Of a stretch of 64,000 nucleotides of DNA, positions 314-51,545 are shown piece by piece; position 1 is the stretch's first letter, and the number at the start of each line of letters is the position of its first letter. The notes below the pieces were generated by a model that saw nothing but the letters and a program-made list of their open reading frames with translations, did no database searches and was not told the origin of the DNA. Made by a program: the position numbers and the translations under genes. Source of the stretch: Paraspadella gotoi (taxonomy: Eukaryota > Animalia > Chaetognatha); NCBI GenBank assembly GCA_051294375.1, contig CM119268.1, positions 14,997,897 through 15,061,896 of the forward strand. Reading direction: 5' to 3'.

Positions 314-3300
314 TTATCGGGTAGAAACATTGATCACGACGATAATTGTTGTATAACTTCGAATCGGATCTTGTCGACGCATGCGCTTGCCTAGATCCTT
401 TACCTTAATCTTGTCTTTCTCGTACTCATTCGTATACTGCGGTGCATAGTCGTAACCGATTTCTCCGCTGGCGAAGAATCCGACGAGCGGCACTCCGGGA
501 AACGCTTTACGAAACAGGTTGGCCTCAACATTCGCTTGTTTGAACCGATGCGTTCCTTTTGCCTCGCAGATGAACATAAAAGCAAACGAGACAGAAGGAG
601 AGCACGTAGACGACGATACCCCGGGTGAGGACGAAGAGAGTAAATTGGGCACGACGCCGCTTCGACGAAGCAGTAACAGTTTCGTTTCCGTGACAATGCG
701 GTTTGCATCCGGCGGAATGACCACAGAGGCAGCCTTAACGCCTTTACCGCCGAAGGCCAAACAGTGGAACATCATGGATGAAGTTAATTTGTCATCGGGG
801 CTTCGAGAACGGTCAAAGTCTTCAGGATCGAAGTGACTTTAAAGAAATTTAAAATAGAGACTTTTAAACGATACTGAAATACAGAAAATAGAATAGATAT
901 ACACAACCTTTTTCACGACTTACAAGAACGGACTTCTCTTTCGAAAGTCAGTGAAGGGCAGCGGCACTTCCTTTATCCTGCTTACGCCAATATATTCCGT
1001 AGAATTTACAATACCCCCAGCAACGACGCACTTTTTATCAACAACTCTAAAAAAATCTTGAAGGGCCTTTTGAGCTAAATTACCGGCCGAGGGACCCGGA
1101 TATGTTCTTTCGAATGTATCTGCAAAAAAAAAATATGAGAGTAAGCAGCAGGAAACCTCACTAGTATGTATAATTATATATATAGTATGTATAATAACTA
1201 ATTAATAAGTATAACTTCTGTAAAAAAATTACCATCTACGATGCGCTTTTGGAAATCGGTGAAAACCAACAGAACTTTAGCGTCGTCAAGACGTGGAACA
1301 TCGTAAACATTTCTATACTTGATTTTATGGGCGCGAAGAGAGAATTGAGACGAAGGCATCAGAGGAAGGACAAGATAGGAGAAATATTCTCCCTTGAGAG
1401 AGAAATAAAATATTAAAAAAATTATAATTACGTTGATCAAATACAGTGGGGTTCATATTATAAAATTAGGTAACCCTGTTTTGTGACCAGAACACGTTCC
1501 GAGAAAACTACTGGACCGAATTTATTGAAATTTGGTACGAACGATCCCTATGTGAATACAAATAGAACTATCGAGACGAATATCAATATTTGATCCCTGA
1601 CCCGAGATATGGGGCCCCGTAGGGGTTAACTCATAAGGGCCAAAAATGGTCACATTTTTTTCTTCAAATTTTTAAATTATTTTTGTTTTGAACAGTTGCA
1701 CGGTCGTTTACTCTTCCACAAAAACGTATTTATTATCACAAAAATATTAGTTCATTTTCAGCAATCATGAAATCAGCAGTTCAAGTCAGATTTGGAATAA
1801 TTTGGGAAAATAGGAAGTTAAACGATGAACCATTCATCTTCAAACCATGCTCAATTATTGTCAATTTATCAATTTCAGTTCTAAACTGTTTTTTATACGT
1901 TTAAAACGTCAATGCACCTGATGCTACTAAAAAGTTTGAAAGAATGAAACAAAAAAATTTTAGCTCCCAGGGCCCCTGTATCTTTTTTCAGGGGTTGAAT
2001 ATCAAAATTCTCCTCGATAGTTCCATTTATATTGTCATTAGAACTATAAATGTAAAATTTCATGAATTTCTATCGTGTAACAGGTTCTGGTCACAAAAAA
2101 GGGGTACCTAATTTTATAAAATGAAGCCTTCTGTATTGATTCGTGCTAACATTCGTTCATACCTCTTCAAATTCGTGAACTAGACCATCTTCATCGGTTC
2201 CGACGCAGCCACTCCCGCTAACACAGAACAAGTCAGTATCGACAGACTTGGTGATTGAGGGAGCTCTGAGAGCCCCCGTTTCGCGCGAAGTCGAAGGATG
2301 AGATGTTGAGATTGTCGACCAGAGCGTTTCTTCCGACGGGAGTCGCTCGTGCGATGAGGCGACGGAAGGTGATAAAGATGACATTGATTGTTCAGGCTGC
2401 GGAGGAGCAGCGGAATTTGATGGCGAAGATACCAAATTCTTCTCCTGTAATAAAAAAATATTTTTTTACATATTGGCATTATCGTTATTAATACTAGGCA
2501 GGGATCGTAAAACGAATGTGTAAGTTTATGAAAAATACAAACACTGGTAATATGTTTTGTATGTTTGGCAATCTAACTTTCTAAGGCAGCATCAGTAATA
2601 TAAACATATTGGCATATAGCTACGTATTTCGTAACTAAAAATGATTGCTCAAGTCTAGGATCAATGATTGTTTACTTTTCGTTTCGAGTTAGGATCACCA
2701 GCCTCCTAATAAATAATTCAAAAATTAATAAATAAGTATAACATAAATCGTACAGATCACAGCAGGAATAAGTATATTGTATTTTGTATATTGTTTTGAA
2801 AAAGTATAAAAGTGTATTGACCACAAACTAGAAAGAAAAGTATATCTAAATTCGAGATAAAATATATACGTACTATCCATAGTATATATCATAAAATCCC
2901 AAGTAAACACCGATGGTAGCGCGTTGTCAGTAGTGGAGTTTTTCATAGTGACGTTCGAAGAGGAAGGTAAGCTCAGACCAGAATTTTCTTTAACGAATAA
3001 ATTAACTAAAGAGTCGATAAGCTTTCCATTGGCAACTATGCGGCGACGCTTGCGTGAAGGGCCTTCATCTGCGATGCAATCACATTTTCAAAGTTGCGCG
3101 AAAAGGCAAAGTTTTTTAAAAATTGAAGGATTACCAGAAGATTCGCGGTCTTCTTCGCTTTCGGATTCAGAATCAGTACCCGGGTCTGGAAACCCCCCTT
3201 GTTCGGGACCTGAAAAAGTGATCACCATCGCCGGTGCAGACCAGAGTTCTTTGAAACGAGTCGACAACAGTTTAGCCTCCTTGCGGCGATTAGAGGCCAA

Positions 3301-4151: not shown

Positions 4152-7100
4152 TCATTTTCGTCTCCTCGCACTAGCGGAGACCCTGGAGCGAGATCGCTGG
4201 GCCGATTTGCCCGTTGACGTACCCCCACCAATGCTGAACATGTTAGCGTTCGGGGTGGGTTGCTGAGGAACGGCCGCACCACCATTCAAACCCGCGGTAA
4301 AGTTGATGACCGGTTTCGTGGAAGCGTTCATGGAAAAATTAAATCCTCCTGGAGAGGGGGAACTCGAGGCTCCTGCCGAACCGAAATTAAACGCAGGCGC
4401 CATAGCATTACTGGTGGTGTTGTTATTGTTGTTGTTGTTAGTGAAGTTAAATACCCCGGGGGTGGCAGCGCTCTTCTGCGGAGCACCGAACGTCGAGGCA
4501 GAATTCGATGGATTAGGGTTGAAATTGCCGCCGCCGCCGAAAGCAGAAGTAGCGCCAAACGTGGGAGATGTTTGGGCTTGAAAAGGCGAGACTGACGCGG
4601 GTGTTCCAAAGGGAGAAGTCGTCGAGGTAAAGCCCCCACCACCTAACAAGGTATTACTGCTCGATGAGGTGCCGCCAAATTGTGTCAGGGTGGAAGTCGT
4701 GACAGGCGTGCCGAAAGGCGATGAGACACTTTTCGAGATTCCACCGCCGCCAAATGGAGAATTGCTGCCGAAAATTGACGTTGCCGAAACAGTTGTTGAA
4801 GAGGACGAGGCTGTCGAACCACCAAAAGGGGAGGGTGCCGAAGAGGACCCGCCAAAATTTAAAGTTGCTGTCGTCGTCGTTGTCTTGGCGCCAAAAGTGA
4901 ACGTCGCCGGTGTATTTGTATTCGGCGTCTTTTGAACACCGAAAGCCGCGGCCCCGGTAGCGGCGGAGGAACCGAAAACGCTTTGGGAAGCCGTGTTCGT
5001 CAATTGAGGGACCGTTTTGGCTGCGCCGAACGAGAAAACCGGCGCGCTCGCCTGAGCGATGGTTGTCGGGGCCGCGGCGGTTGTCGATGCAGCGGCACCG
5101 AATGAAAATGGTGCGGACGAGCTTGCTATAGCCACCGTTCCTGTTTTACCCGCCGTTGTCGTTTTAAATGAAAACGCTGCGGAACTCTTAGCTGTCGTTT
5201 GTGACGCCGTCGCTGCGAAGGAAAACAGCGGCGCCGGATTCGAAGCGGCCGTCGTTGTTTTGGCGCCGAAAGTAAAGGCGCCCTTGGCGACACCTTCGCT
5301 TGTAACCGGTGGCTTAAAAGATGCGGATCCGTTCATAGTGTTAAAGTCCCCAGCACTGGCAATATTACCCGAAGATTGCGAAGCCATTGAGAAGGAAAAA
5401 CCAGCGGTTGATGGAGCCTTGGCAATCGTGGTCGAAGGACCTGAAACTCCGTTAGGTGTCAGTTTCATCTGCGAAGGAGTAGTGGTGGTTGCCGTCGCAG
5501 GCGTCGAAGATTGGGAACCGAAGGTAAAACCAGAATTGGAGGATTTGGCGGTGATGCCGAAAACAAAGGAACCGGTCGATGCCGGGTTGGAAGATTTAGA
5601 AACAGACCCCGACAAAGAATTAACGGCAATATTTGAGGGAGCCATAGAACCAACGGCGGTAGTCATGTTAGGGGCAGAAGCCCCAGTAGAAAGGACATTA
5701 GAGCCAATAGTTGCGGGCAAAGCAGAAGAATTAGCGAAGGTAAATGAATTTTTCGAAGTTACAGCAGAAGTGATATTCTGGGTTGATAAGGGATTCGACA
5801 ACGCGGCTTTGATAACAATCGGCTTTGAGACTCCACCGATCGGGGTAGCACTCGACGACGGTGTTGAAGACACATTCGACGTCGTCGAGGCGGCGTTCGA
5901 AGAGGACGAGGAGGTTAAAGACGTGATCGGAGTGCCCGGTCGAGGAGGAACCAGGGCTGCAGGTCCCCCAAAAATCGACATCGATTTTGAAACGGTCGTT
6001 GGAATGCTTTGTGGAACGTTTGTTGAAAGGTTCATCGGAACGCCGGTTGGTACGCCTGATGGTCGGATTGATGGTATTCTAGACGGTACACTTGATGGTA
6101 TGCTTGAGGTTAAATTGGATGGTACACTTGAAGGTACAATTGATGGTACGCTTGACGGTACGCTAGACGGTACGCTAGACGGTACGCTAGACGGTACGCT
6201 AGACGGTACGCTAGACGGTACGCTAGACGGTACGCTAGATGGTACGCTAGATGGTACGCTCGAGGTTACCATCAACGGTACGCTCGACGGTGTGCTTGTG
6301 TTTAGCGGTACACACACAATTGATGGTATAGTTGACGGAACGCTTGTTGGAAAGCTGTTTTGCAGAGAGTTGCTTAGCGGCAGGGGCGTTGGTGGCGTCA
6401 CCGTAAACCTCGGAACTAAATAAGAGAAAAATTTACCATAAATAATAAGTCATATAAAAAATGGTTTTCCGATTATAATTACTCGAAACGGGTAAATTCG
6501 CTGAGGTCGAGGAATTTTTCAGTGGAGTCGAGGGTCGCGATGATACGAGCTTCAAGGAAGAAGTGGTTGACCGATCGTCTTCGGAATCGCTCGCGTCGAG
6601 TTCGTCCAGAATCGACTTGAGCCTCTCTTTCTCAAGCAGCTCGTCCTTCTCGAAATCCTCCATCGTGGGCGTCCTGCCGACCGCTTGGTCCGAGGCGGAA
6701 AATTCCTTCAAAGACGATTTGAGGGCGGCAGTGCCGAGGGGAGGCGCTTTGGCCGATGAAAAGTCGGATACGTCGCTTGAAATCTCAAGGGTTCGTTTGG
6801 TTGCAGCCGAATCGACAGGCGAATGAGAGGTGTGAGGAAGAACCTGAGATTAAAAATAGAAAGTTTTTTACAAACATGACGCATAAAATAAATTTTTAAT
6901 TTACTCATTAAATGTACAATTGTACATACATACTTTACAATTAGTGACTGTCAATATATCTATTAAAGCATCATTTATTGTAATTAATGAGTTAACCTTC
7001 GAAGCATTCGGTTCATTAGAACGAGGGAGCGTTTTTGGTTCCGGCGTAGAAGTCTTCGGTACTTCTTCCGAACTCATTGAAGTCGTCGTCGTCGTCGTCG

Positions 7101-10879: not shown

Positions 10880-13800
10880 ATGGCGCTTTACAAACTTCGT
10901 CGAAACCCTCGGCGCCTTTCTATCGCCGCCCTCTGCTCCTTTGTTTGTTGGTTCCTTCCGCCACCGACAGATGTCGCGGCCGCCACGTCAATTTACGTCG
11001 TGGAAGTGGAAAATCCCGAAGTCGGCTACGAGTATTCGAAATTTTCTTGTAAGGTATTATTTTTCCGTCGTTCTTTCTTGAGAAAGACAAGCACGTAGTT
11101 GTTTCTTGCTTCTTTTTTTTTTTAAAGCCAATTCTTTTAATCGCGATTTAGGGAAAGACGGGCGGCCCCTTTCCCGACCCAGACGATTGCGCCATCTATC
11201 ACCATTGCATGTTCGGAAGAGACTTCACGCAAAACTGCGCCAAAGGGTTTGTCCTCATTTCTGAAATGCTTTTTTTTCCCCCAATTAATATCTGTCGATG
11301 TCTTTGCTTTCTGCCAAGAATGGGAAGGAACATTTTCTTTCCTCCCATCTTAGACTGCGTTTTAACCCTCGGCTCCTCGTCTGCGATCTGGCGGCCAAAG
11401 TCAAAAACTGCGGCGCCAAAGTGAAGCCGACGCCGTCCAGCGCCGCTACCGAGAAAACGGAGACGACGAAGGAGACGACGAAGAAGACGACGAAGAAGGC
11501 GATCGAGAAGACGACGACTAAAAAGGTGACGTTATGGCAACAGCCGGGTTTCCTGTGATGCCCATTGGGATGGGGCATCTCACTGTTGGCTTTGGGGGCT
11601 TCCGACCCTCAGTGACGCCTCCTGTTACTGGCGCGGTTACCCTAGAACGGTATCGCTTTGCCAACGCAGAGTCGTTAGGACTGTGGATGGAACACAAAGC
11701 TTGGGATGGTGAGTTCCCCCTCTGAGCCAATGGGATTGGCTGAACGATGATGGACGTCAGGCGGTGTGAATATACTGCCACAACGTTTGAATAAGAGAAT
11801 GATACTCTGGTAAAATTCACCCTTATTAAGCCAATGGAAGAATAGAAAGAAAATGTCCAAAGGTTCGTAGATTACGAGGAAATTTCAAGTTTGTAGATTT
11901 GACTGTTATATGAAAGGAATGAATGAAATGAAATGCCCATATAAGTTAGGAGGAAAGATACGACTTTGCTTGTTGAACGGATCAATAATCGTTATATTGG
12001 TGTTAGCAATTTCATAACCAACAGCTCCTGTTAATTCTCTTCATGAAAGGTTTCGGTGGTGACTCGACCTCCCACGATTCCTTCGTCCACGATCGTCTTC
12101 GGCGCTGAATTTTGTCCTCCACAGGGCACCTACGTTTTTCCATCCAAACAGGGTGAGAGATCGTTAAATGAAAAATGATTGGTTGACAATCATTCGTCAA
12201 TCTTAATTTGTTTTTTGCATAAAAGTGTTTTTATAAGTATTTCCCCAAACTTCATTCGAAATTCAAGAATGTTCAATGAATTGTTCATCGTCTAATTCGA
12301 CCCCATTTAGGCTGTCATATATACGTCAGATGTTACGAGGGTCTTCGAGAGATCAACACCTGCCCCTATCCAAAGTACTTTGACGAGGCAACCCTCACCT
12401 GTCTCGATTGGCGCCGTGTCAAGTGCGGCGATAGGCCCGAGGTACGTATTGCTCATCATACATATTTTGGCACTATTTTCCGAAAGCGTTACTTAATCCC
12501 TTAATTGTATTTTAACCTTAATGTTTAACTCTGATCTTTTTTTTATACTTATTCTAATCCCTAACCCATACCTAATACCTAATTACCCATACCTAATTTT
12601 TAATCCTTATCCCCAACTACAATACCTAATCTAAAAACCTAACCCCTAATCTTATCTTCTAATCTTAAACCCTGATCCCTAAACCGAACCCTTAACCCTA
12701 ATCTTAAATTATAATTCTAATCTCTAATTTAATTTTTAAGCTTAAAAATTAACTTAATTCGGAATTTAAGCCGAAATTGGGCACTTTTGTAAAATATGGT
12801 CCATATTTGTAGCATAATTTCAATTCACTTTTTCGCACCTGAGGCTAAAGAGCCATGTGAGTACAGAATCGGGGCTCCGGGAGAAATCAGAGCTCCGCCT
12901 TGTTGGTTGACTCCCACGTGCAAGGAGAAGTCCAACGATATGTATGCGGACGTTAGAAGGGATTGCAGGCGAGTTGGTTCAGATTTTGATCTGATTTGAT
13001 TTGTAATGCTCAAAGATGTGAGTTAACACATTAACAATACATATTGTTAATGAGAATTTTGTCTTGCTCCTCTCATTAGCGAGACTATTTTTTAACATCC
13101 ATTCATCACTAGGCTATTAAGATGTATTTAAATTAAATCCATCTTCCGTTTCAGATCGTTCTACCGCTGCGAGGAAGGAAGAACGATGGAACTAAAAAAG
13201 TGCGACCAGGAAACTGAGTCCGCGTCACTCTCGGCCTTCGGGATGATGTTCAGGTGAATGAAGAAGAGTCGCTCTCGAGAATTCGCCAGAAGGAGGTTCG
13301 ATGTTGACAAAAATTGGAAGCAAGCTTTAAAATTTGGCTTGAACTTATTTTCTACTTGCCAATTTTTTATGTCTTCGTGACTATTCCTATAGTGCTATGT
13401 TTATTCTTATCATTGCACCGCAGTATAACAAATATTGTGCCGACCATTCCTTAAAAGTATCAGCAGAGAACGCTCGAAAAATTACGCCCAAAAATTACGC
13501 ACAGAAAATTATTGTTTTATATATCTAATACCGGAAGAAGTTTTCGCAATAAATTAAAGTCTCAATTTCATGTTATTATTGGTTATTGTTGTATGTTATT
13601 GTTATTGTTATATGTTATTATTATTTAGCGAAAAAACTAAACGATGCGAAGACGCGATGCTCGTCCAATTTCCCTGCGGCCCAAACCTTCCTCTGAGTAA
13701 AAAGGGTCAACCCAAGTGTCCCTCCGGTGCTGACGGATGGTGGGGCGATCCATTTGACTGCAGGGTCTACCACAAGTGCAGGTGAGAAGATATTAATAAA

Positions 13801-29222: not shown

Positions 29223-32200
29223 CTAGCGCAGCTCTCTGAAAGAATAAAAAATCCTCATATCTCTTTATGTTTTTTACACAGGACAAAGTATAATCTCATT
29301 GTAATACCTAATTCGAAGGATTCTTTCGAAGACGGACCTTTCCTTAGCCGCCTCTTCTGCCGTCACATCGAACAATCGCTCCCGATGCAACAACAAAAAC
29401 AGAAGAATGTTTTTTTGCTCCAAGCAACGACTTGGCTCACCGCTAATCAAGATTGGTCCCATGATGGCGCTTAAGTTGTCCAAACTCTGTAATGTAGCAA
29501 TAATGTAATAATAAATTATTAGAAAAATAAAAATTGAAAAAAAAAAAACTGCAAAGAGCCTATGTGGCTTATTAAGGAAAGTATTAGTTTGCAGAGTTCT
29601 TACCATTAAATTAACGTTTTGTTTTGAGGCAATTCTAACTAAATGCAACGACAGCATCTTGAGCGTCGCATGATTGACGAGCGGAAGGCGTCGCAGTAAA
29701 TTCTTGACGTCGCTAAAAGTCTTTTTGTTGTTATTATGACAAGAACTTGCCAGGTTGAACCAATCATCCCGAAGTGAGGACTTTAAAAGAGGCTCGGGTA
29801 ACTGGCAGAGGAACCTGCAGAATAGGAGGAAATAGTAAGAACCAATTAATGAAAAATCTTAAAAGTATAGTGATCTCGCCAGACGTTACTAACAAAGAAA
29901 ATTAATGAAAAAATCCAAATTATTAGTGTAATAGTAATTGATTGATTGATGTAATAGTAATTGATTGATTGATAGAATAGTAATTGATTGATTGATGTAA
30001 TAGTAATTAATAGTAATTGATTGATTGATGTAATAATAATTGATTTATTGATATAATAGTAATTGATTATTGATGTGATTGTTGCGATGATAACCAAATG
30101 ATTGATTCGATGACAGTCATTCATTGATGCGATGATAATCATTCATTGATGTGATGATAGTCCTTCATTGATCCGATGATAGTCATTCATTTATGCGATG
30201 ATAGTCATTTATTGATGCGATGATAGTCATTCATTGACGCGATGAGTCATTCATTGTAAATAAAAACAAACAAATGCGTGTATGAGTGAAAAAGAGAGAG
30301 AACCCCAGAACTTAATATTAACCCTAATCTTATACAAAAACCTAATTCCTAACCCTACTAATCTCTAAGTAGTACATTAAGATACTTTTTGACTGTATCC
30401 GCTACGTCGAAAATATTGTTCTCGTTGTTGTCATCTCCTAAATTAGTTGAGGATGGAGGTCGAAGTGTGACTGAGCTGGCATCATCGTGGAACTGGGCCA
30501 AAAGGCGAGTGACGCGCTCACCGTCTCCAGAATGTCTGAATATTCCTTTTGACTCAATTCCGTGGCTCAGAATGTGATCAAGGCAAGTTTCAAGTAAAAC
30601 GGGAACGTTGCGCTGATCAAAAAAAAAAAGAAAAGAAAAAAAAAATTTATAAAATATTTTTATGAAATTAAAAGCATTGAAGCTTTTTTATCTTAAGAAG
30701 CTAAATTAAATTTTTGTAACGCAATATTAAGAATTACTTGGTTATTATATTAATCATCACAGAATTTGCGTTATTTCAAATACCATGTCAAAGTTGTGAA
30801 AATTTCAATACTACCAAAAGCTTTTAGTTTTACCTGGCTGAGCATTTGGTCTTCGATTTTGTTTCCCGCTTTTCTGGACCGAAGGATTAGACGCAACCAA
30901 TCTTCCGTTAAATTCTTATTTTCCGCTTGGAGACAGATGCATCCGCCGTCGGGTAGTTTGAAAAGAATCTGAAATCCCTCCAGATAGACTACTGAAATGA
31001 ATAAGGTTCAAAATGTTTAAATTAAAACTTACGATGACGCGACCAGCCCACTTTTTAGTACTTTAGTACAACTACTCTATAAGTCACTTTTCGGTCGGTC
31101 TGTCGGTCGGTCTGTCCCACTTACGTTAAAAATGTTCATAACTTGCATATAATTGGTTGTTCGATCTCATTTGTCATATCATATCACATCATGTCATTTC
31201 ATGTCGCGGCGCAACACATTTGAATTACCGTTCTTATTACTTTATTTATACTTTAGACTGTTGACCTGGAATTCCTATGCTTTTATGGTCGTCAGGATCA
31301 AATCCGAGACACTCCTTCGCATCTTTTCTCAGATCAATTTCGGTAAAACTTTTCGTTTCCTCCTCAAAAACCCAGAGGAAATTATCCTATAAAAATCATT
31401 ACTAGAATATTTATGATGATTTAATTTTTAATCTCATTTTTATCCTCAAGAATTTTATGCAGATAAAAAAATATTTAATGTAAATACCTTGAGTACAACC
31501 CAAGCCAGTTTTAATGCATCATTCATTTTAAAATTGAGTTTTCCAAATCTCTGAAATCCATCATCAGCAACCGATAGTAAGGCAGTTGGAAGAATATTTA
31601 GAGCGAGAGACCGCATCCATTTAACCTGATAATTAAGAAACTAGAACTTACAAATTTCCGGCCTGATTCACAAAGTAGGTAATAATCAAACTAATAATAA
31701 AACTAATCAACCTTTTTCTCTGAAGTCTCTGTTGCATAATTTTGCATTTGTCCCAGAGTACTTATCAAAAATCCATGCAAATCATCCCTTGTTTATTGTA
31801 AATAAAACTTAGTGAATTTTCACTATATTCATTTTAATTAGAAATAATAATAATTGTTAAAAAATAATTTTAGAAACTTTTCTATCTGGATGAAACCGAT
31901 TTTTTGTACAATATTTTTTAGTAAGACTTACCGATCCCCAAAGACATCCTTATCGATGATTTCAGAAATAAAAGATGCGTCTTTCAAAGACATGGAATAT
32001 AATGCTTCCAGAGAATCTGGGTTTTCAAAACACTTGAAAGAACCATTGTGGCAAACACAAAATTGTTTTGAGTTGACTTTAGGTTTCTGCTTGGTTTTTT
32101 TAAACAATTTAGTTTTGCGATTGGGAGTTATGATGAGTGGGAGATAAGTCAAAATTTCTCTCATTGTTGGCTCTGTTAAATCAGAAAAAAATAAAATGAT

Positions 32201-33878
32201 TTAACAGAATATGAAATATTTAATAAATATTAAATTCATATCACCGGCGTCAGTAGAAAAGATTCCGCGAAGTTTAGGTTGATTGCTGTGCAGCTCAATT
32301 AAGGCTGCTTGGTAATTTTGGCCAAAACTTATTAAAAAGAAAATAAATAAAGAAAATAATAATAAATTAAAATTTCACCCTAATCAGCATTCTACAGAAT
32401 TACCTTAAAGCGAGTGTACTCAACGAACTGTGGGCACTTAGACGGCTGTTTCCTATAATGTTTGCGCCTGAAACAATCAACTGCAACGTCTTCATAAGAT
32501 CAGATGTCTAAAAAATTTTTTAACACTAAATCATATATACCATACATAGTTAAAATATTTTCTAAAAACATCTTTCTAAAAACCTGCATATTAGCAGCGA
32601 GAGCAGTATCGAGGTTATCTTGAGCGCTCAGAAGACGTCGTACATCGCAAAACGACTTTAGTTTGTACTTTGCAATGACAAAGTTTTTTCTCATAAACTG
32701 AGAAGAATCGCGCGCCATGATGGTTCTTCCCAATAAATCCGCTACTTTTTCGTTACCTAAAAATTTTAGGACACATAAATAACTTTGCCGTATATGTAAA
32801 TGTGAAATAGTGTGAATCTTAAATTTGTAATAAAAAATCAAACGCAAGTTTAATTGCATGTGATGTGATCACCCATGGTGGAGATTATTCCGAGGTCTTC
32901 AGCGCGCCAATCTTCTATTTCCGTCTTAAGCGACATGAATCTCAAATTCAAGAATCCCACTTCTCGATGAGCGACGCAACAATTCCTGCAGACGACGATT
33001 CCCCAGTTGAGGACGACCCACTCTGGGTCGAGCTGCCCACAGTCTGCGCAGGCGCGGTTGGAGGGATTGCTTCGTACTCTGAACCAAACGCTGTAAAATT
33101 CCCGACAAGATTAAAAAAAAAAAAAACAATATATGGGGTAATGTGGCGCATTTGTTTGACTGTGATTTGGATACTAAATGGTTATCAACAGTTTTTTCTT
33201 ATGTTGGTTCTTTCCTCACTCTTTCCTCACTCTTTCCTCACCAGTTGAATAATTTTTGGAATATTCTGAAATCGCCGCATAGACTTTTAACTCCAACCCC
33301 CCAAAAAATTGTCAGCAACCATCTTGATCACCTTCTAGGTTGCAACCTTCTTCCTTCAGCGATGGCTTCTTCCATCCTGCATTGCCACTCGGCTAAACTG
33401 GCAGCGGAATCAAAGGAGAAGCACAATTCTATCGAGGACCCGAAACGAAGCACCAGTTCATGAACATCGTCAAAAACCCCAGATGTCTGCGATTAAGAAT
33501 GAGGGAAATGTTATTGTAATCAAACTTTATGTTATTTCCTTTCTTTTCGTTGTGTATATATATTATATAAATTAATTAGAGAAAACAAAGTTTGTTTGTT
33601 TGATAACAACGATTTTTATTTACATTAGGACATGTTTCGGCTCTTGCTTTAAGTTAAATTTGTTAGTTTAATCCTTAAATTTGTTATTTTAATCCTTAAA
33701 TTTGTTATTATTTATTTCATTTATTTTTGTTATACATTACAAAATATAATTATTTTCTCTCCCTTTGTCTCTCTCAATATTTCACCATTCATATTTCAAC
33801 CACTTTCCTCTTCTTCTCTCCCCTTACCTGTCCTTAATCTGACCACTGTCCTTTTCTCACTCTGTGTTGGAAGCTTTA

Positions 33879-33932
<54 letters not shown>

Positions 33933-36900
33933 ACTCAATGTTAAAGAGAAAAATTTGTTATTGAAACAAACGCTGATGAAGAGCCGAAACATGTCCTAAT
34001 GAGTAATGTAAATAAAAATCGTTGTTATCAAACAAACAAACTTTGTTTTCTCTAACTGTAATCAAACTTTTACATTCGCTAAATTGCTTAATATCAAATC
34101 GTAATTAATACTTACTTCAACGTAAGCTAGTCCCATCTGAATCATTATCATCGGGACATCGTCATTGAAATGTTTCTCCTCCTCATAAATGCAAAGCCAG
34201 TGGTCTTTGATAGCAACAAATTGTGGACCGAGAAACATGAATTCATTTTGAATCGGCTGTATCGACTTTAGCACGATGGAACCTAAAATTATTTAAATCT
34301 AAACAGTTTAATTCTAAATATCGAAGTTTATCATGTCACAAAAATTTAAATTAAAACTGCAACAATAAAAGCGTGATGAGATATTTTGATTTAATTATTA
34401 CTTCATTTGTGCACTACCTTTTTTGATAGGGTCGTAAAGTTCACCTCCATCTTTTTCCCACTCTTCAACACAACTGTCTAACAGTATTACCTATTTCAAT
34501 AAAGAAATTTCAATTTAATTTTAAACACTCATGACAAGCTTAGTTTTATACTTCAATAAAATAAAAAAGAATAATTAATAAATGAATTTCTAGCATCTTA
34601 TCAATCAAAGCGCAAAGGCGACTGAATTAATAAATTATTTTACCTCATTAATCAACTTGATCCATAGAGTCATCTCATCCTGAGATTCAGCTGTGAAGGA
34701 GAATTTTCCTTTTTTGGTTCTAACCACGAAGATGTTCTGTGAGATGGTGTTTCTGGCTGAAGACTCTGCTGGTGACACCAAAGTCATACCACGGATGATC
34801 AGTCTGTAATTGCAGGAATATAACTTGTGCCCAATAAAAGACGTTAATTTTTTTTGGATTTTGTAAACTCGCCTTGAAAGTAAACTTTTGTTATCGTAGT
34901 AGCATGTCAATTCCCCTCGAATGAAGCCTTCTCTGGTATTTCGTTTCGTCAGTCGAAACCATCGCTTCATATATGATTTGGCCCCTGGGAGAAATGCCAA
35001 TAAAAATATATGTATTGAATACCAGTAATGATCCATATCTAGGTATTATCTGTGAAGAGAGAGTATTATCAGTACAATCAGAAGCCTGGAATCAAAACTC
35101 ACCCTTGTCAACTTTGACCTCTAGACTCAAGAGACCTTCGTTGAGCAGGACCGGTTCGAGCATTTCCGGCGTATCGATTTCCGAGAAGACCTCCGAGTCG
35201 GGCCTTTGGCTGGAGAATAGGAACTCCGCGGTGTTAACAATATACAAAAATACTGTTGTAACATTATACATAATAAAATTCTTCTCTTTTCTCAAGCAGT
35301 GAACATTAAGACGTAGTAAAATTCCTAAGTTTAACTTTAATTAAAAATCTAAAAGTGAGGAACGAACAACATTATACTTATGAACATTTATGCATAAAAA
35401 AAATTTATAATAAATTTTACAATTTACGCAGTAGGCCATATTTATACTAGTACTAAACCAATAAATGTTAAAATTTCAAAACAGTTTTTTCTAAGATTTG
35501 TTAGCAGATTTGGATTTGTCATAAAAAGTTGATAAAAAGAAATATAACTCTTTTTGAAAAATTCCTTCATTAAGTGGGTCAAAAATTAGAAAAAGCTATA
35601 TTTTAACTTAAAATTTAAGCTGAAAATTAATTTTTTATATATTAAATATAGTTTTTTTAATTTTTAACCCACTTAATGAAATAATTTTATATATATATTT
35701 TTTATATTTATATTTTCTTTTATCAACTTTTGACGAGGAATTAATCTGCAATCAAAATTAAGAAAAGCCTATTTTGAAATTTTCGATTTTATAAGGATAG
35801 TACTATGGCAACGGGAGGAGAGCCTGTGATCACCGGGGCGGGGGTATCTCACCAACTGGCGTAGGGGCTGCGGACCCTCAGTGACCGCCTCCTGTCACAT
35901 GGCATGTTTATACCAGCACCGTCACATTTAAGCCAGAACCGGGATACCCAGGGATTGAACCCGGGACGCACGGATGGAATGAGATGATTTAGCCTGCTCA
36001 GCCATTGAGACGAGGCTGAGGACGGAGAGCAGTGAGGCAGCTTTAAGTCTTGCTGCCACAGGATCCCCCCACCAGACTTCTCCACAGGGGCCTCAATCCT
36101 GAGGAGATGTCTGAGAGAAGGTTTTGATCTCATTGCCATAGTGAGAGCGAGCGGGCGAGCGAGCGAGGAGTCTGGAGCGTTACCAGAGAAGTAGGGCATA
36201 GGCGTGATATGCATACCCTAAGCGACGTAAGCATGGGCGCACGGTGCGCAGCGGTTGCGTGTTCGAGAGTAGGGCTCACCACTTATGGCAACGGGAGGAG
36301 AGCCTGTGATACCCGGGGCGCGGGGTATCTCACCAACTGGCGTAGGGGCTGCAGACCCTCAGTGACCGCCTCCTGTCACTGGCATGTTTATACCGGCACC
36401 GTCACATTTAAGCCAGAACCGGGATACCCAGGGATTGAACCCGGGACGCACGGATGGAATGAGATGATTTAGCCTGCTCAGCCATTGAAACGAGGCTGAG
36501 GACGGACAGCAGTGAGGCAGCTTTAAGTCTTGCTGCCACAGTACTATATATAAATATAGCCTACTGCGAAAATTAAAAAACATAAAATTAATTTTTTTTA
36601 CAAATTAATGTTCACTGATGGTATGTTGTTCATAATTGACTTATAGAATTTTCGTATGTAACTTTCACTACGCCTTAGTGAACATACATAAAGCAGATTT
36701 GTATGTACTATTTCTTCCCCTATCTATTCGTACATGTCTTTTTTAAATTATTTGCAATATGAACAATTCAATTATTGTCGCAGAGCCGGAACCCACACCT
36801 TAATAAATACGTATATATACGTATATAATATATACGTATACGTATATACCTTGAGTCAGAACTTATTCCAGAATCTGGGCGACCTAAGGAAAAATTAAAA

Positions 36901-41014: not shown

Positions 41015-43087
41015 ATGCGTCGTAAAACAACTTTAGTTTCATTTTCGTACATCAAGGCTAAGTTTCTCATCCTGCTCGCGCTTATATCGTCTTCCACAAG
41101 AGTGAGTAAATATATGTAAAATGATTAATAGGTGAAAATACGACTAAACCAGTGCGATAAATTTGCGACAGTTTCGAAACGTAGAGGGTCGATCGAATGC
41201 CGGGTTCACTGAACTTTCCACCGACTCTTCGCCCCCAAATGATGACGACGACGATAGTTCGTGCCTTCTCATTCACGAGCTTTCGACGGGAGTGTGCATC
41301 CGAGCGGGACTTACCTCGTACCCAACGAAAAAGGGTAATATGGAAACGGGAGGAATGCCTGTAATACTTGGGGCTCGCGATATCTCACCAACAGGCGTAG
41401 GGGTTACGGACCCTCAGTGACCGCCTCCTGTCACCGACATGTTAAGCCCGGCTCCGTCACATTTAAGCCAGAACCAGGATACCCAGCGATTGAACCCGGG
41501 ACGCCCGATTGTCACGAGATGATTTAGCCTACTCAGCCATTGAGACCAGACTGAGGACGGGCAGTAATGAGACAGCTTTAAGTCTTGCTGCCACAGTAAC
41601 ACATTGGTTGTACCAATTACATTAAAAGATCACCATCAAAACGCCATACCATAAGTGATAGCATTACAAATGAATTTGCCACCCTCGTTCAGACCTTCCC
41701 AAGTACATCCACGCTCTCATCCTTTCGGAGAACCGGTTGGCCGTCCTGAACCGAACTCTTGCAATGACGACCTTCACCAAACTCAGGGAACTGGATCTTT
41801 CGAGAAACGTCTTGTCGCTCATTGAAGAAGGAGCGTTGGAGGGAGCCAAGCATCTGAGGAAGCTTGACCTTAGTTGGAATCGGTAGAATACGAATAAAGA
41901 AGATAAGTCGGTTTTGATTTACCCAATTTTCTTTTTACCCTTTAATGATCAGATTGACGCGCATTCACCGCGCCGCCTTTCGCGGTGCACAAAATCTCCT
42001 TGTGCTCGACTTGAGCTACAATCTTCTTGACGTTCTCGAACCCGGCGCCTTCAAAGGACTAAGAAAGCTGAACAGGCTGTGGCTCCAGAGAAATTTAATA
42101 AAAACTATTAGCGAAGACACGTTCGAAGGACTTCGTGGTCCGAATCTCGAATTTCTGTTTTTGCAGGTTACCATAAGTCACTTTTTCGTTTATGCGGAAG
42201 CATTTATTAATTTTATGCATACACTTTCCGAGTTAGATTTAATAGGATAATTCGATATTTGTTATAGCAAAACCAAATAAACACCATCAAGAACGGTAGT
42301 TTCCACATGATGACAAGTTTAGTGATGCTTCAAATCGCCGACAACCTCTTAAAAAACCTTTCCTTGTCGCTCGTCATCGAGATGGCGTCGGTCGCAAGGT
42401 TGGTATCGAAAATTGGGATAACGCGTAGGCGACTCGCGATTAACCTTTTTCGCAGATTTGTGAACTGGGAAGGGAATCCATGGAGCTGCGACTGCAGATT
42501 TTCAAACGAAGCAGTGCAGTCGCTGAAGAACAATTCATTCCAAGGTGCTTTTTTTGTTCGACTAGTATTAGTATTACTTAAGTATTGTGTCGTACGAACA
42601 TTAACCGCCTTACCATGTATTGGTTATTGCTAAACGGTAATTCCATAATCATTTGGCATTTGTCGTCGTTTTTTATAATTTTGTCCTCTATTCACATCGA
42701 TTACAAACTTAACTAACAGTAATTATTACTGTAATATTCTCGCCGTCCTAATTTAAATTTTTTTTTTGCGTCAGAAGAGTTACCAGTAATCCGATGTGTG
42801 ACGACGATGTCGTGCGAAAGCAAAGTTCTTCATCTGACAGAGAAAAGTGATCGAAAAGAGACGGTTTCAGCTTGGTCGGGTAAGTAAATTAAAGTGAGAA
42901 CGTATTACTTTCATAAATTAAGCTGCTAAATTGATCGCTTTTTTCAGGTGGCGCGATTGCTGGTTTGTTCTTCGCCGTTTCATTTACAATAACTTTCGTT
43001 CTTATATGCGTTTCTCTCTCCTGTTGCAAAACTCGAAGACAAAATCAAAATTATGGATCCTCTGAAAATGCATGTTACAATAAATAA
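41015..43087 (+). CDS. Single-pass leucine-rich repeat membrane protein (signal peptide, ~7 LRRs, LRRCT, TM, short tail)
   Basis: Signal peptide MRRKTTLVSFSYIKAKFLILLALISSSTR. Repeats LRELDLSRNVL, LRKLDLSWNRL, LLVLDLSYNLL and LNRLWLQRNLI. LRRCT GNPWSCDC. TM GGAIAGLFFAVSFTITFVLICVSL. Stop at 43087. Confidence 0.85.
41339..41595 (-). mobile_element. Solo LTR of the tRNA-promoter TRIM
   Basis: 257 bp, alignable end to end with the LTRs at 35804-36540. GTAA TSD at 41335-41338 and 41596-41599. Confidence 0.92.
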
Positions 43088-43679
43088 TGAAACTTACTCT
43101 CAGATAAGGTTCAAACTCCAAAAGAAAATAGCTCCGCTAAGCTTGACTCAAACTCGGCATTCAAACATACCAGAAAAAACGAAAAAAGTTCATTTGTTCT
43201 GTTGTCTAGTTGAATCTCGCTAGAATTTGAATTGTATATCAATACGGAGTTTACTTCCTCGTATTTCCAGCTGACAGACGGGACTTGATTATTCTGTATA
43301 AATGTGACCTGGAGCATCTGAACATTTGCCATGCAATTAAAAATATCATAATATCATCCACCCGTTTTTATTATATCAATAACAATTTGTAAAAGAACAT
43401 TTCAAATCTACTGAATATTGATTTTAAAAAAAATTGTACTTTGTAATTAATTTAAATTACTTTGATTAGAATTAAGAGAAATTTTGTTTTGTTTACAAAC
43501 AACGAATTTGTTTTTATTTTCAAGGAGAAAAAACGTACATGGTTCGTTGTTTGTAAACAAAACAAAATTTCTCTTAATTTTAATTTCAAACGAAACGAAA
43601 CGAAAAGCTCAAAATAACAATTACTTTGATGTAATTAAAAAAAATTTAAATAATGGATTTGTCGAATGTAGTGAACTTT

Positions 43680-44908: not shown

Positions 44909-45095
44909 GGCTAAATTTTACTTTCGCCGACCGCGGTTTTCACGGCTTTTGAAAAATCATTTAAAAATATTTAAAAAAAAATTAAAAAAAACTATTCCAT
45001 AATTACCCTAACCCTAAACCCATTTAACCCTAAACCACCCCAAACCCTAAACTACCCTTCACCCTAACCCCGGTCGGCGAAAGTAAAAGTAACCC
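44909..45095. mobile_element. Merlin-like MITE with internal CCCTAA-like repeats
   Basis: GG...CC termini, ~28-bp TIR core ttttactttcgccgaccg, and a perfect 8-bp TSD aaatgcta at 44901-44908 and 45096-45103. Confidence 0.85.
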
Positions 45096-46194
45096 AAATG
45101 CTATTTAGAATTTAAATACCATTTAGATCTTGATGGGTAAATTAATTTAAATTACCACTATTACATCGGCTCCTAAGAAATTCAGCAACCCTGAGTTTTT
45201 AACTATCCGGGACCAATTTAAGCCTAAAATGAAATCGCTCAGAATTAACGCTTCATGAAAAGTGAAACCAAAAGTTGTTTAATCAAGCGTAGGGCATACT
45301 CACCAATACGAGCCTGAAATCTGAAAAGATCTTTGCGATTTATCTTGGGCTTGAAAAGCAGATAAAATCTTCATGACTTTTATTACTTAATCGAAGAATT
45401 TGGAAAAAGGTGAACGAATATCAAAATATTTAATCCTGTAATTTGTCCATCTTTTTCCAAATTTTCGATGGCTTTAGTTTCAAATTAGTAGAAAAACCTC
45501 TTTCCTTTTTGCTTCTTATGAATGAAGTGATGCGCCGAGGTTTAAACAACTTAACCCGAAAGATGAAAAATATTTCGGCCCAAAAGGAGTAGTTAAATTG
45601 TAGACGAAAATTTTTTTTCTTACTTGTTAATATCGAATCCTGGCTCAAAATTTACATTTATTTAAAAAATATTTTAAGAAACGAAATGACTAGTTTTCAA
45701 ACTTTCTGCCTAATGAAAGAGATTGTAATCGGTAATAATTTATAGGAGCAACAGTAATCACTTACGATACAACTATTACGAATATTTGGTCAATTTTACA
45801 AACAAAAAAAATCCCAAAGAGCTAATATTCAATAAAACACCCCAGAGAAAAAAAAGGGACTAAGAATGTATATAATAATTTTTTTTATTATACATGTATG
45901 TTGTGGTGGCATGATATTGGAGAGCTATCCGGTACCACTAAGGAGAAAAAAGTTATACCCTTTTAAAGCGGTACTAGGTAGTAACGGTTACCATATAAAT
46001 AATAAAGCCATTAATAATCAGAAGTTATAAATGTACAACCAGAAAAAACAATTTCATTTTAATAGGAACAAACAACTACTATTTAGCATTTACATATATA
46101 CATAGGTTACTCGAGGTCGAGCCGTCGTCGGCCTCGACCACATCTTAGAGCTTCCCTCTCGTGACGAGCTCGCCCCTTCCCTACTAACATATAG

Positions 46195-48283
46195 TCATCT
46201 GCTTATGCTATGGGATCTATCGTCCCTAACTCTCAACCCCATCCGTGAAGATAAACGGGCAGAACTGGGAAGTCGATCGAAAAACGGGTGCTTCAGGGCC
46301 TCACCTAAGGTCACGCGCTTGGCAGGGTCGTACTCTAACATTTTGGCCACAAGGTCGTACAGTTCCCTATGGTCCTCGTCGTCCCTCTTCCCCAAAAAGT
46401 AACGTTTCAGCGGCTGACAAGTTTCCCTCACATAACGACCGGCAGAGCTTCGCTCGTCCCAGTCCAGCCTTCCGCGGTGGAAATACTTGGATTTTCTGCT
46501 TTTCTTTATCATTCTATAAGGTAAGGGCCCCAGAATTCTCTCCATCATGGCGAGATGTTCTTTGTTGTCGTGTGTTTGGAATAGGGTCATGCCTTTAAAT
46601 AGCTCGTAGATGATGCAGCCGATGGACCAGACGTCACAGGGCTGTGCCCATCCGAGCTCGAGTATTACTTCCGGCGCCCGGTAGTGACGCGTCGACACCA
46701 CCGTTGAGTGATGTTCGTCGTCAAAAGTAGCTGAACCGAAATCTATGAGACGAACTGAGCTGTCCAGGACCTGAGTTATCAGTAGCACAAAAAGTTTGGG
46801 TTGGCCCAATAGACCAAAAAAAAAAGACACCGAAAAAAAAAAATTTCTACGTGTGACAAACGTTAAAATTCGCCATCATTATCTCCACAAAACAGATTAA
46901 GCAGAAAAAAACCCCAGTATTTACAAAGCTCACCTCTTTAAATGATTTGCCCCTGGAACTGATTGCCGTGGAAAAGTCTGAATTGACGAAGAGGATGTTC
47001 TCTGGCTTCAAATCAGTGTGAGTTAGACGAGATTCGTGCAAGAATTTGCAGGAGAAGATTAACTGGCGAAAAATAAAGGTTAAAAGTTAGTTCAAACTTC
47101 AAATTGTATCAAAGAAACAAACTTTTAATAGCCAGCTTAGACTAAGTTAGAGACAGTTTGAGTTTAGTTTAAATTACCTGGTACGCAATGTGTCGCACTT
47201 GTTCAAGAGGATAAGGATTGTAGTTATTGTCCTTCATGAAATCGAATACGGAAGTTCCCAAGAGTTCGAACACAATGCAAATGTGTCCACAGAAATCGAA
47301 CCAGTTGAGCATCTTGACACACAAGTTCTTCCCTGTTGCGAAACGAAATAAAATAATGAGAAATAAAATAACAACTCTTCAAACGCAAGGCTCGTTTACC
47401 AAGAAAATTACTCACCACGGGGATCTTGTTTGTTGATCTTCTCCAAAACGTTGATCTCCAGCTTGGCGGCATCCCTGTACTTGTCGACGCTCTTGATGAT
47501 TTTTACCGCTATTCTTGGTCCGTTAGGGTCGAGATGATCCGCAACCTCCGTCACCTTACCGAAGGTTCCCTCCCCCAAGTGACGTAAAACCTCATATCGG
47601 CCGTGGATGAGGTCGCCAGGGTGGTATACGAGATGCCCCTCGGAATCGTCTGTGGTCGGAACCGGCATGCTTAAAAGTTTCGTGTAGAGGGGAATAGCAC
47701 CAGCGGTGGTGTCGGCAGCCGAGAAGGTCGGTAGAAAATGATGTGTAAATCGGGAAAGCTGTAAATGAAAAATGTATATGTGGACATTCATGACCGTTCG
47801 TTTCGTTACATTATCTATACCTTGGAAGTTTCGAAAACCGAGTTCTCTTTGTCGTTGAGAAGTTTGGTGCCACGTAAAACTCGTTTTTCGGCGGCAACGC
47901 TTGGGCTTCTGCCAACGCTACAGCTGCTGTTGCAACGTCGGCTTCTTGAGGTGACGCTATTATTGGCGAGTCGACGGGAGCGTCTTCCATTGTCGTATTT
48001 GGATTGGACACGGCTGGACTTGGTTCCGATATTGACGCGTTTGTGAGACCGAGAGGTACTTGGGTCCTTGCGGGATGTTTTCGAGAGGCTCGCTCGGTAA
48101 TCGTAAGATTTTCTAAAGGAAAAAATATCGATTTGAAAAATTATGTGACCTCTACAGACATATAACCCATAGCGACGATTAATACAACATTAGGAGCATT
48201 TTAAAGAACTGAGTTTAATCAACTTACCTAATCTGCGATCTTGTTTTGTACAATGGAATCTTTATTCGTTCAATGTAGTTCAT
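46195..48283 (-). CDS. CLK: CLK/Doa LAMMER dual-specificity kinase
   Basis: [41 protein letters not shown] and [11 protein letters not shown] motifs. R/S-rich N-terminal exons, spliced in frame from an ATG at 48283. Confidence 0.95.
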
Positions 48284-48722
48284 TGAATCGATTTCACCAT
48301 AGCTGATTGAAAAATAGTAACCGCTTTTAATAATTTTTACGCCTGGGTTAAGTCACCTCATTACAATCATTTATTCGCGCACCAATCAAAAGGCTAAAAT
48401 TATCTCTTAAAAGTGTACAGACATGTCAGGTCAAATATTTATTGTGAAATTTGTTAGTTTACCTATCAATAAAAGTACAACAATATGGTATATCTAAAAA
48501 TAGGGGTAACTTTACAATTCGACGTCCGCAACCATCTCTAGCTACCACCGGTCGGTGCTTTGTTAATCCATTTAATTTTGTTTTCCCTCTACTCGAGCGT
48601 CGTGTCTTAGTCTCAGTCTCTTGTTTTTTTATTCAGTAATATAAACTTTATAATTTTATAATAAATAATAATTGTTTTTATGTTTGAGGTAGAAAATGAA
48701 TGGCATTTTTAATTTTTCCTTT

Positions 48723-49329
48723 AATATTTTTTATTTCTGTTATATTGAAATTGGTACAACCAATATACATTTGGGTAAAAATTAAGGTTACAATAAATTA
48801 TGGTTAAGAATAAATTAAGATAAGTGTAAGTTAACTAGAAAAATTAGTTAAGGTTAAAAATAAGTTAGGGGTAAGTTAGAGTTAGGGGTAAGTTGCCAAT
48901 AACTTAACCCTCACCCAAACTTACCTCTACCCCCTAACTTACCTCTACCCCTAACCTCTACCCTCTACCCTCTAACTTACCCCTTACCCCTAACTTACCC
49001 TTACCCCTAACTTACCTTACCCTAACTTACCTTACCCCTAACTTACCCTTACCCTACTTACCCTTACCCTAACTTACTCTTACCCCTAACTTACTCTTAC
49101 CCCTAACTTACTCTTACCCCTAACTTACTCTTACCCCTAACTTACCCTTACCCTAACTTACCCTTACCCTAACTTATTATTTTTAACCTTAATTTATTTT
49201 TCTAGTTAACTTAAACTTATTCTTAATTTATTCTTAACCATAACCATAACCAAAATTTATTGTAATTTTAATTTTTACCCAAATATATATTGGTTGTACC
49301 AATTTCATATAACAAAAATAAAAAATATT
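48723..49329. mobile_element. Foldback element with ~170-bp inverted arms and an internal (CCCCTAACTTA)-type tandem array
   Basis: gaaattggtacaaccaatatacatttgggtaaaaattaa...gttaactagaaaaa is mirrored at 49180-49329. No clear TSD. Confidence 0.75.
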
Positions 49330-51545
49330 TAAAAAAAAATATTATATCTGAATTCCTTTATTTTTTTCCCGAAACGTTATCCTTTTCCGTTCCATTTCGT
49401 TCCTCTTCTTTTTTCAATTAATTCTTTAAGAAAAACCTTGCTCTTCGTTTTCCCATAGTGTTGAAAAGACATCTCACCCAAAGACAGTCTCTTCTTCCGT
49501 AGTAGATTTTATCTTCTTAGTCTTCGAGACATAATCGTAGTCTAAACAATCGTTTGGCGAATGACGGCGACGGCGCGTCTGCGGCATTTTGACTTGCATT
49601 GGCGTGGGTCTTCAGGGCGAATACTGAGGCCTCAACTTCGAGTTGAAATAAAATACGTGATAAAAATTGAGAAAAATGTTAGTCTTTGGGACTAACAAAA
49701 AAGAATTGAACACAACTGACGTAAAATACCGTAAATGAGTAAAGTGGCGATGTAAAAGACTACCGTAGAAGTTAGTCTGCCAGCTGAATAAGTAATTTAG
49801 GATTACATGAAACGACTTCACGAACGATGAAAGTCTTGACAAATATTTCATTAAAAAACGAAATTCCGAACAATTTTCGATGAATCTTCAAAAGAAAATG
49901 GCTGAAACAAAGGGAAGTGGAACAGATGCAATTTCAGTGAGGAAAAGAACATTCAAATGTATGCGTGATCAGGGCCTGACTCAGAGAGTTGAATTTGATG
50001 GTCAATTGAGTTTCCGATGGCGATGCGATAGTTTTCGTTCCTTTTCCGTAGGTAGAGTCAAAACAAAAGACATTTTTAATAGTGTAACGAAGTTTCTTTT
50101 TTTGGCGTTTCTAAAATTAACTATTAAGGAAATTTTACTATTTTTTTAATTTTTAATTATTAGACGTGTGGTTCCTGTGAAATCCATGAAAATGATTTAG
50201 TATATTCGGATAAAATCCTTAATTTTCTTTTTGGTGAAACTTTTTTTTAATAAAACAAATTACATTTAAAATAAAAGTAATATTACGCTTAATGCTTATA
50301 GTTCCTCTTTTAAAATGATTTTGAGTACAACTAAAATTAAATATTACACTGGTGCGACTTTCCAGTATTATCATGATAGTTATAGTTATTATTTTTTTTA
50401 GTGTTTTATCAATATTGTTATAATGATAAATAAATAATAATTCTAAGCACCGCTTGTTCAAGACAGCATCTCTTTAATAGTGAAGTCGCGAAGATATTTC
50501 ATGATCACGTGATTAACTTTCATACCGAAAATTATGCTTCTTTGTACAAATTAGCCAAGAGCAAGAGACTAAAGAGAAAGCATATTCTCTGTTACACGAT
50601 TTGTCGGGAATTTGTTTCTCGATTCAGATTGGTTGCACAGCCAGTTACGAAAGAACTTAGAAATTCTAGGAAGAAGTTAGATCGGAAAAAACAAGAGCAG
50701 AGATCACGAGTTTGTGAACACTCCTGTAAACTAGGTTGCGAAAACGGATGTGATTTTATTTTCAGCTTTTATCAACGAACCAAAGATAGACATTTGATAA
50801 TACTTGAATTTCGGCCTGTTGAAAGGCGATATCATTTTGATAAGACTAATCTCTTCAAGAATGTTTTTTTATGCTCAAACTTACAATCCAACCAACCGAC
50901 AAAAAAGTTTCTTTTAAAGTCGAGTCTTTAGCCGCGACTTTTTTGTAAATTTTTTACCAATTGTAATTTTGTTAATTCATTTCTTTTTGAAAACTGTGAC
51001 GACTTGCTTATAATTTTTTTCCCGGAAACTTTGAATTTCATCGATTTCGCCTGTTGTCATTCGCGTTCTCCTATCTTCAAAACTTTTGATCTTGGGACTC
51101 CCAGTCGACAACCTCTTACATTATCTTTCCCATAAGTTTTTCTCCGATTTCAATGTTGATTTAATTTGCTCTTTAACTTTAATTAAACTAATTATCTTTT
51201 AGCTTCTTTAGTTTAGTTAATGCCCATGTGTCTCATTTCATCCACTATAAACTAAATCTCATTTTCGGCTTCTTCTAGTCCCATGCTACCTGTGTCGTTA
51301 TTCAGTTGAAGAAAACAGGTAAACTTTGACGAAGGTACGCTAAATTATTATTTTTAATAATTTTTTTCCTATTAATATGAATGCGAAATAGAACCAATAA
51401 GAGGCCGACGACAGAGGTTTCACTTGTACCTTAATCTACAAATTGACAAGCAAGCTATCAGGACCGATATTTAATTTTAATATTTTTTCAAGGTATAATA
51501 CTAAATACTGAATATTAATTCAGGGGTGTTGTGGAAGACATCGCC

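What the first reader, a model, noticed from the sequence alone, without database searches (positions are those of the whole stretch)
11533..11640. Covarying structured RNA core conserved between distant LTR subfamilies
The 11533 solo LTR is unalignable to the others over its middle but keeps the 3' ~100 nt. That part has the hairpin CAGTGAC-AGGAGGCG-GTCACTG, then GAGGGTC...GCCCC, then GATACCC...GGGTATC. The last stem reads GATGCCC...GGGCATC in the divergent copy, a compensatory A-U to G-C change. The 41339 copy replaces an A-U pair with G-U in the first hairpin. The invariant loop AGGAGGCG could pair with downstream CGCC/CTCC in the main subfamily (possible pseudoknot). A hairpin covering the A box is also kept (TCAGCC...GGCTGA vs AGCCAAT...ATTGGCT). 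Inference: a selected RNA element such as a packaging signal, processing signal or unclassified ribozyme. I do not recognise a known ribozyme core in it.
Basis: partly seen in the sequence, partly recalled or inferred. Interest (0 to 1): 0.75.

Follow-up and report, generated by a model that had tools for sequence, protein, structure and literature searches.

The report
Structured tail of tRNA-promoter mini-retrotransposon
Two strongly diverged families of a small non-coding jumping element, likely from an animal, share about 100 bases with matching hairpin arms right beside the primer site; this stretch likely works as the signal that lets a helper retrotransposon package and copy the RNA, and a new self-cutting RNA is less likely but untested.

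Summary
The repeat is a Helenus-type miniature LTR retrotransposon on the minus strand: one full copy (35804-36540) and two solo LTRs (41339, 11533), all with 4-bp target duplications and tRNA-type A/B boxes; the full copy has a PBS and PPT. The 3' ~100 nt is conserved between the two families, whose 5' parts align no better than shuffles, and it holds shared hairpins beyond chance (two 7-bp stems in 0 of 1500 shuffles; 3 of 36 stem vs 20 of 47 other positions differ). The 11533 copy does not carry the quoted first hairpin (private mismatch, shorter loop). The loop is not invariant, the pseudoknot partner is not kept, and only one pair covaries (137 of 500 shuffles match). No Rfam family or ribozyme descriptor fits. 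The conserved block continues across the PBS, and its end is predicted to pair with the PPT/LTR junction, so I read it as the U5 packaging/priming module for a Gypsy helper (0.55). An unclassified ribozyme stays open (0.15), because TRIMs with this layout carry hammerheads or, by unchecked scan notes on other families of this genome, twisters. The scan had no look-alike of this sequence.

The parts
11533..11782 (-). Solo LTR, family B (250 nt, TG...TA ends), 4-bp target duplication ACGT at 11529-11532 and 11783-11786
   Evidence: family boundaries at 11532/11783 in thousands of contigs
11533..11632 (-). Conserved 3' core of the family-B LTR (inferred U5)
11610..11630 (-). Hairpin H1 of family B: 7-bp stem, 7-nt purine-rich loop; this copy has a private mismatch at 11626
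11596..11608 (-). Hairpin H2 of family B (4 bp, 5-nt loop that differs between copies)
11557..11579 (-). Hairpin H3 of family B (7 bp, holds the one compensatory pair; C-rich loop not alignable to family A)
11719..11729 (-). Pol III A-box match, family B; no variant listed in the family
11685..11693 (-). B-box-like motif, family B (one mismatch to the recalled consensus), in a short T-arm-like hairpin; no variant listed, flanks polymorphic
11725..11741 (-). Hairpin over the A box (innermost pair lost in 57% of family depth); its first base is the inferred start site
11760..11779 (-). U3 hairpin at the LTR 5' end, 5 of 6 pairs, with a second compensatory change (C-G in family A, U-A here)
   Evidence: helix 1
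35804..36540 (-). Full-length TRIM, family A: two 257-nt LTRs around 223 nt, 4-bp target duplication GTAC, inserted in an AT-rich inverted repeat; empty-site joints seen in contigs
   Evidence: joints
36284..36540 (-). 5' LTR, family A: A box 36473-36484, B box 36432-36441, H1 36360-36381, H2 36346-36358, H3 36308-36329
35804..36060 (-). 3' LTR, family A (6 substitutions and 2 indels against the 5' LTR; H1 and H3 disturbed)
36272..36281 (-). Primer binding site starting TGG 2 nt after the 5' LTR; tRNA not identified (9 of the first 11 nt match the PBS of Helenus-2_SyJa, by eye)
36192..36220 (-). Leader hairpin; its arm motifs recur, by eye, in a family-B contig with a different loop
   Evidence: p 0.95; loose end of run X10
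36132..36145 (-). Internal antisense copy of the LTR 3' end, predicted to pair with it (9 bp, p 0.92; exact 8-mer expected 0.002 times)
36058..36073 (-). Polypurine tract and PPT/LTR junction, predicted to pair with the end of the core (5 bp p 0.98; 7 bp p 0.83)
41339..41595 (-). Solo LTR, older or variant family-A copy (~86% identical), 4-bp target duplication GTAA; H1 kept with G-U, H2 with U-A, H3 decayed

Best explanation
The conserved 100 nt is the 3' end of the LTR of a Helenus-type miniature retrotransposon, and it likely acts as the structured RNA signal by which a helper Gypsy element's proteins package the RNA and start copying it. Shown by sequence: LTR-PBS-internal-PPT-LTR layout, 4-bp duplications, A/B boxes, shared hairpin arms with diverged loops. 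Inferred steps: (1) Pol III starts about 12 nt before the A box and reads the whole element, which has no T4 run, ending at a T run in the flank. (2) The core is then the 5' leader (U5) directly before the PBS. (3) H1 displays a purine loop with a GGAG-type motif for Gag/nucleocapsid, and H3 stiffens the module. (4) The invariant end of the core pairs with the PPT/LTR junction and the LTR end pairs with an internal antisense copy, bringing the ends together and gating the PBS. (5) A tRNA primes reverse transcription by the helper, and integration leaves a 4-bp duplication. The promoter half drifts because only its boxes matter.
For: Architecture; definition of Helenus and its Gypsy dependence in animals: PMC10886601. 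Shared structure above chance. Wobble pairs work on the minus strand only (G-U in H1, U-G/U-A in H2), the strand of the PBS and boxes. The conserved block crosses the LTR edge: one 276-nt contig in run X10 joins a family-B LTR to a PBS/leader stretch that matches family A at 39 of 40 nt (31 of them outside the LTR), with further leader motifs shared. Predicted U5-PPT and U5-internal helices, and a 480-nt unit that folds better than shuffles (z -3.0 linear, -2.5 circular; 60 shuffles each). Precedent: end-to-end pairing is needed for Ty1/Ty3 priming (PMC4974528); a GGAG purine loop and the PBS are Gag-binding packaging signals in MMTV (PMC8096270); plant retrozymes share the LTR 3' end plus PBS with Gypsy helpers (PMC4918200).
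Against: No helper element, transcript or binding was examined. Covariation is one pair in the core. H1 and H2 are not robustly predicted: mean pair probability in the 5' LTR is 0.01-0.92 for H1 and 0.0-0.41 for H2 depending on context, and a rival helix competes with H1 in both families. GGAG is lost in 21% of family-B depth. The long-range helices rest on one family-A copy; the 3' end of the family-B internal region is unknown. The X10 evidence is a single low-depth contig labelled as another organism and may be carry-over. The 41339 copy is no better conserved in the core than elsewhere. In plant retrozymes the shared 3' box is only ~25 nt, not 100.
Confidence: 0.55

Rival explanations
1. 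The core is an unclassified self-cleaving ribozyme that would cut once in each LTR, releasing a 480-nt unit that circularises (a retrozyme with a new catalytic motif).
For: Same layout (tRNA boxes in the 5' part of a ~250-nt LTR, long 3' part) as Helenus-2_SyJa/SyUm, whose LTRs show a type III hammerhead core by eye, and as other TRIM families of this genome that unchecked scan notes describe with twisters. No terminator inside the element. The unit folds better than shuffles. Some unpaired positions are the same in both families.
Against: No Rfam match at gathering (0 in 64 kb), and only E 1.6-8.6 chance hits on the two LTR regions. My hammerhead, HDV and twister descriptors find 0 sites in 10 strands (no positive control). 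No junction or pseudoknot is kept in both families: the CTCC partner is missing in family B and loop-loop pairing is 4-5 of 5-6 bases, by eye. The motif is three hairpins in series at the LTR end, continuous with the PBS, not a compact unit behind the B box.
Confidence: 0.15
2. The identity step is historical: a template switch joined a different promoter half to the same U5-PBS-leader, and the hairpins are inherited inverted repeats with little selection on structure.
For: Sharp step from background to 80-90% identity. The shared block runs across the PBS. Template switching and module reshuffling are reported in non-autonomous LTR elements (PMC13570524). Only 1 compensatory pair.
Against: The 5' halves are collinear (same ends, A box at 57 vs 54, same upstream hairpins, a compensatory change in the U3 hairpin). 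Within the core 20 of 47 non-stem but 3 of 36 stem positions differ. The core is also less polymorphic within family B.
Confidence: 0.17
3. The core is a sequence-level or host-facing element (DNA or protein binding site, RNA stability or processing signal of the Pol III transcript), not a helper-recognition signal.
For: Stems are invariant rather than covarying (10 of 18 pairs never vary), which fits sequence-specific reading. Thermodynamic support is weak.
Against: Kept blocks are mutually complementary far beyond chance. Wobble pairs favour RNA on the sense strand. The position beside the PBS is where retroelement cis signals lie.
Confidence: 0.13

Closest known systems
Helenus TRIMs (TRIMp3; Kojima 2024, PMC10886601; main text parts 1-4 of 6 and passages, supplement part 9 of 11 plus two motif searches)
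   Same: Non-coding, under 1 kb, two LTRs, PBS, PPT, A/B boxes in the LTR, 4-bp duplications as in animal Helenus, solo LTRs.
   Different: Most LTRs seen in supplement part 9 have the tRNA-like part near the 3' end followed by a T run. Here it is in the 5' half, with ~150 nt after it and no T4. Ends are TG...TA. The core motifs were not found in the supplement (line breaks can hide matches), and the main text has no 'hairpin'.
Helenus-2_SyJa and Helenus-2_SyUm (same supplement)
   Same: tRNA boxes in the 5' half of the LTR, long 3' part, PBS starting TGGTGA, G-run PPT with a short spacer.
   Different: They show a hammerhead core after the B box (by eye); this element has none.
Plant LTR retrozymes (Cervera 2016, PMC4918200; passages)
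   Same: Non-autonomous, Gypsy-dependent; conserved LTR 3' end plus PBS; structured unit RNA.
   Different: No hammerhead here; Pol III boxes present; conserved 3' block ~100 nt rather than ~25 nt; circles not shown.
Retroelement 5' leader signals: MMTV purine loop and PBS (PMC8096270, passages); Ty1 CYC5/CYC3 and Ty3 bipartite PBS (PMC4974528, passages)
   Same: Purine loop with GGAG near the PBS; predicted pairing between the two ends of the RNA.
   Different: No sequence homology tested or claimed; analogy of position and shape only; here the signal lies inside the LTR of a likely Pol III transcript.

Membership tests
Helenus (TRIMp3) | Short non-coding element with two LTRs | tested here: met
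   737 nt, LTRs 257 nt, no ORF of 150 aa in the element
Helenus (TRIMp3) | tRNA-like A and B boxes in the LTR | tested here: met
   Family A: both boxes, 44 nt apart, the only such pairs in the window. Family B: A box plus a B-box-like motif with one mismatch. ARAGORN finds 0 tRNAs, so the head is degenerate.
Helenus (TRIMp3) | PBS and PPT in the internal part | tested here: met
   TGG-starting PBS 36272-36281 and G-rich PPT 36064-36073; primer tRNA not identified
Helenus (TRIMp3) | 4-bp target site duplication (animal type) | tested here: met
   3 of 3 insertions: GTAC, GTAA, ACGT
Helenus (TRIMp3) | Pol III transcription and Gypsy helper | not testable with these tools
   No RNA holder listed; no genome held. 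T3+ runs on the sense strand 1 vs 4.7 expected (P 0.03); absence of T4 not significant (P 0.30).
LTR retrozyme | Self-cleaving ribozyme of a known class in each LTR | tested here: not met
   Rfam; descriptors
LTR retrozyme | Unit-length linear and circular RNAs | not testable with these tools
   Only contigs were available
LTR retrozyme | Highly structured unit RNA | tested here: inconclusive
   z -2.5 (circular) and -3.0 (linear) on 60 shuffles, one copy
Twister ribozyme | UAA at the cleavage loop, P2, GAGGG with a CCC partner in L4, second pseudoknot | tested here: not met
   GAGGG and a C-rich loop are present, but there is no shared UAA or second pseudoknot (by eye); descriptor 0 hits; no Rfam twister hit. 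Motif definition recalled.
Hammerhead / HDV-like ribozymes | CUGANGA plus GAAA core; nested double pseudoknot with conserved L3 | tested here: not met
   0 hits in 10 strands (recalled descriptors, no positive control) and no Rfam hit
Covarying conserved RNA structure (R-scape sense) | Several significantly covarying pairs in a deep alignment | tested here: inconclusive
   1 of 18 pairs, 137 of 500 shuffles; only 4 sequences

The most novel reading that the evidence does not exclude
The core is a self-cleaving ribozyme of an undescribed class, filling in this TRIM family the slot that hammerhead and twister ribozymes fill in TRIMs of the same layout, and it releases a 480-nt circular retrozyme RNA.
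Probability: 0.15. Interest if true: 0.92.

Novelty: new variant of a known kind. Interest (0 to 1): 0.4.

Why it matters
How a TRIM that shares no LTR sequence with its helper is recognised is stated as unknown in the Helenus paper. Two abundant families that have diverged everywhere except promoter boxes and a 100-nt U5-PBS module point to a small, testable candidate for that signal. If the module instead cleaves, it would be a new ribozyme class, and a one-day assay separates the two.

Tried and rejected
Rfam: 0 hits at gathering; at E<=10 three chance hits per LTR region; 4 microRNA-like hits elsewhere at E<=1. Own genome not held, so no deep alignment. Genome index: one answer, 18 genomes with matches, all to the (GAGC)n-like stretch or next to it; LTR-only queries did not complete. 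Pattern scans: metagenomes 2 hits (the pattern fitted only the A-starting loop, so it missed the commoner family-B form), viral contigs 0, prokaryote genomes 3. The five loci match the LTR profile only over or near the pattern (4 at the pattern, none over the LTR's length) and are treated as chance. No RNA holder listed; X9 and X10 are only guessed to be RNA, so nothing is concluded on expression. Run X12 laid 0 contigs. No extra LTR copy in the window. A twister-like reading (helix before GAGGG, C-rich loop of H3) was considered and dropped for lack of UAA and a second pseudoknot. HDV-like and hairpin-ribozyme readings failed by eye and by descriptor. A recalled link to a human MER6 structured-RNA paper was wrong: 0 mentions in PMC7941889. 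Exact core motifs in the literature: 2 unrelated papers. Slips: the A-box helix was placed one column off, so that row and the whole-structure totals are not used (one search gives those pairs); the outer two H1 pairs of the 35804 LTR are out of register. For the polymorphism test I dropped 5 of 23 listed positions as private to the window copy (97% or more of depth differ) and the one insertion. Published SINE central domains (V, CORE, Meta, MESC and others) were not compared; their figures and supplements were not read.

Full report
What is in the window. Self-comparison finds four copies of one LTR: 35804-36060 and 36284-36540 (97% alike, 223 nt apart), 41339-41595 (~86%) and, over its last ~100 nt only, 11533-11782. 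Each insertion has a 4-bp duplication (3 of 3: GTAC, GTAA, ACGT). The minus strand is the sense strand: a TGG-starting PBS follows the 36284-36540 LTR after 2 nt, a G-rich tract precedes the other LTR, and A/B box pairs occur only on that strand. Contigs of public runs show both families at very high depth, with sharp borders at the LTR ends and joints for the empty site of the full copy. These are the features that define animal Helenus TRIMs (PMC10886601). The host is likely an animal, inferred from the duplication length and the eukaryotic gene fragments; I did not identify it.

Noticed in passing
PMC10886601 supplement, Helenus-2_SyJa-LTR and Helenus-2_SyUm-LTR: Both published LTR consensus sequences show, by eye, a type III hammerhead core after the B box with a long loop-loop complement; the main text does not mention it.
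   Followed up: partly
window 35448-35803 and 36541-36652: The full TRIM sits in an AT-rich inverted-repeat element (MITE-like, ~71% self-complementary), very abundant in the runs; empty-site contigs exist.
   Followed up: partly
window 36147-36170: (GAGC)n-like microsatellite in the internal region; it caused the genome-index matches.
   Followed up: yes
window 36206-36211: The loop of the family-A leader hairpin holds a 6-nt palindrome (ATGCAT), a possible dimerisation site; not kept in the family-B contig.
   Followed up: partly
window 48712-49340, 12622-12728, 44991-45037: Degenerate CCCTAA-like tandem arrays, with an inverted arrangement at 48712-49340.
   Followed up: no
window 31074-31162 and 52836-52952: Second dispersed repeat (86-90% alike) with GGTC/CTGT-type microsatellite, Helitron- or SINE-like by recall.
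   Followed up: no
window 4152-6449 (-): 765-codon open frame with a 12-nt tandem repeat at 6000-6350; no Pfam match.
   Followed up: partly
window 314-838 (-), 29274-29858 (-), 46195-46875 (-): Exon-sized frames matching FIST_C (below cut-off), RhoGAP and protein kinase.
   Followed up: no
window 41339-41595: The solo LTR lies just before frames that read like a leucine-rich-repeat gene (41700-42200, by eye from the DNA); not translated or tested.
   Followed up: no
window 43465-43584, 45390-45469, 33576-34055, 1440-2137: Further palindromes or inverted repeats, probably MITE remnants.
   Followed up: no
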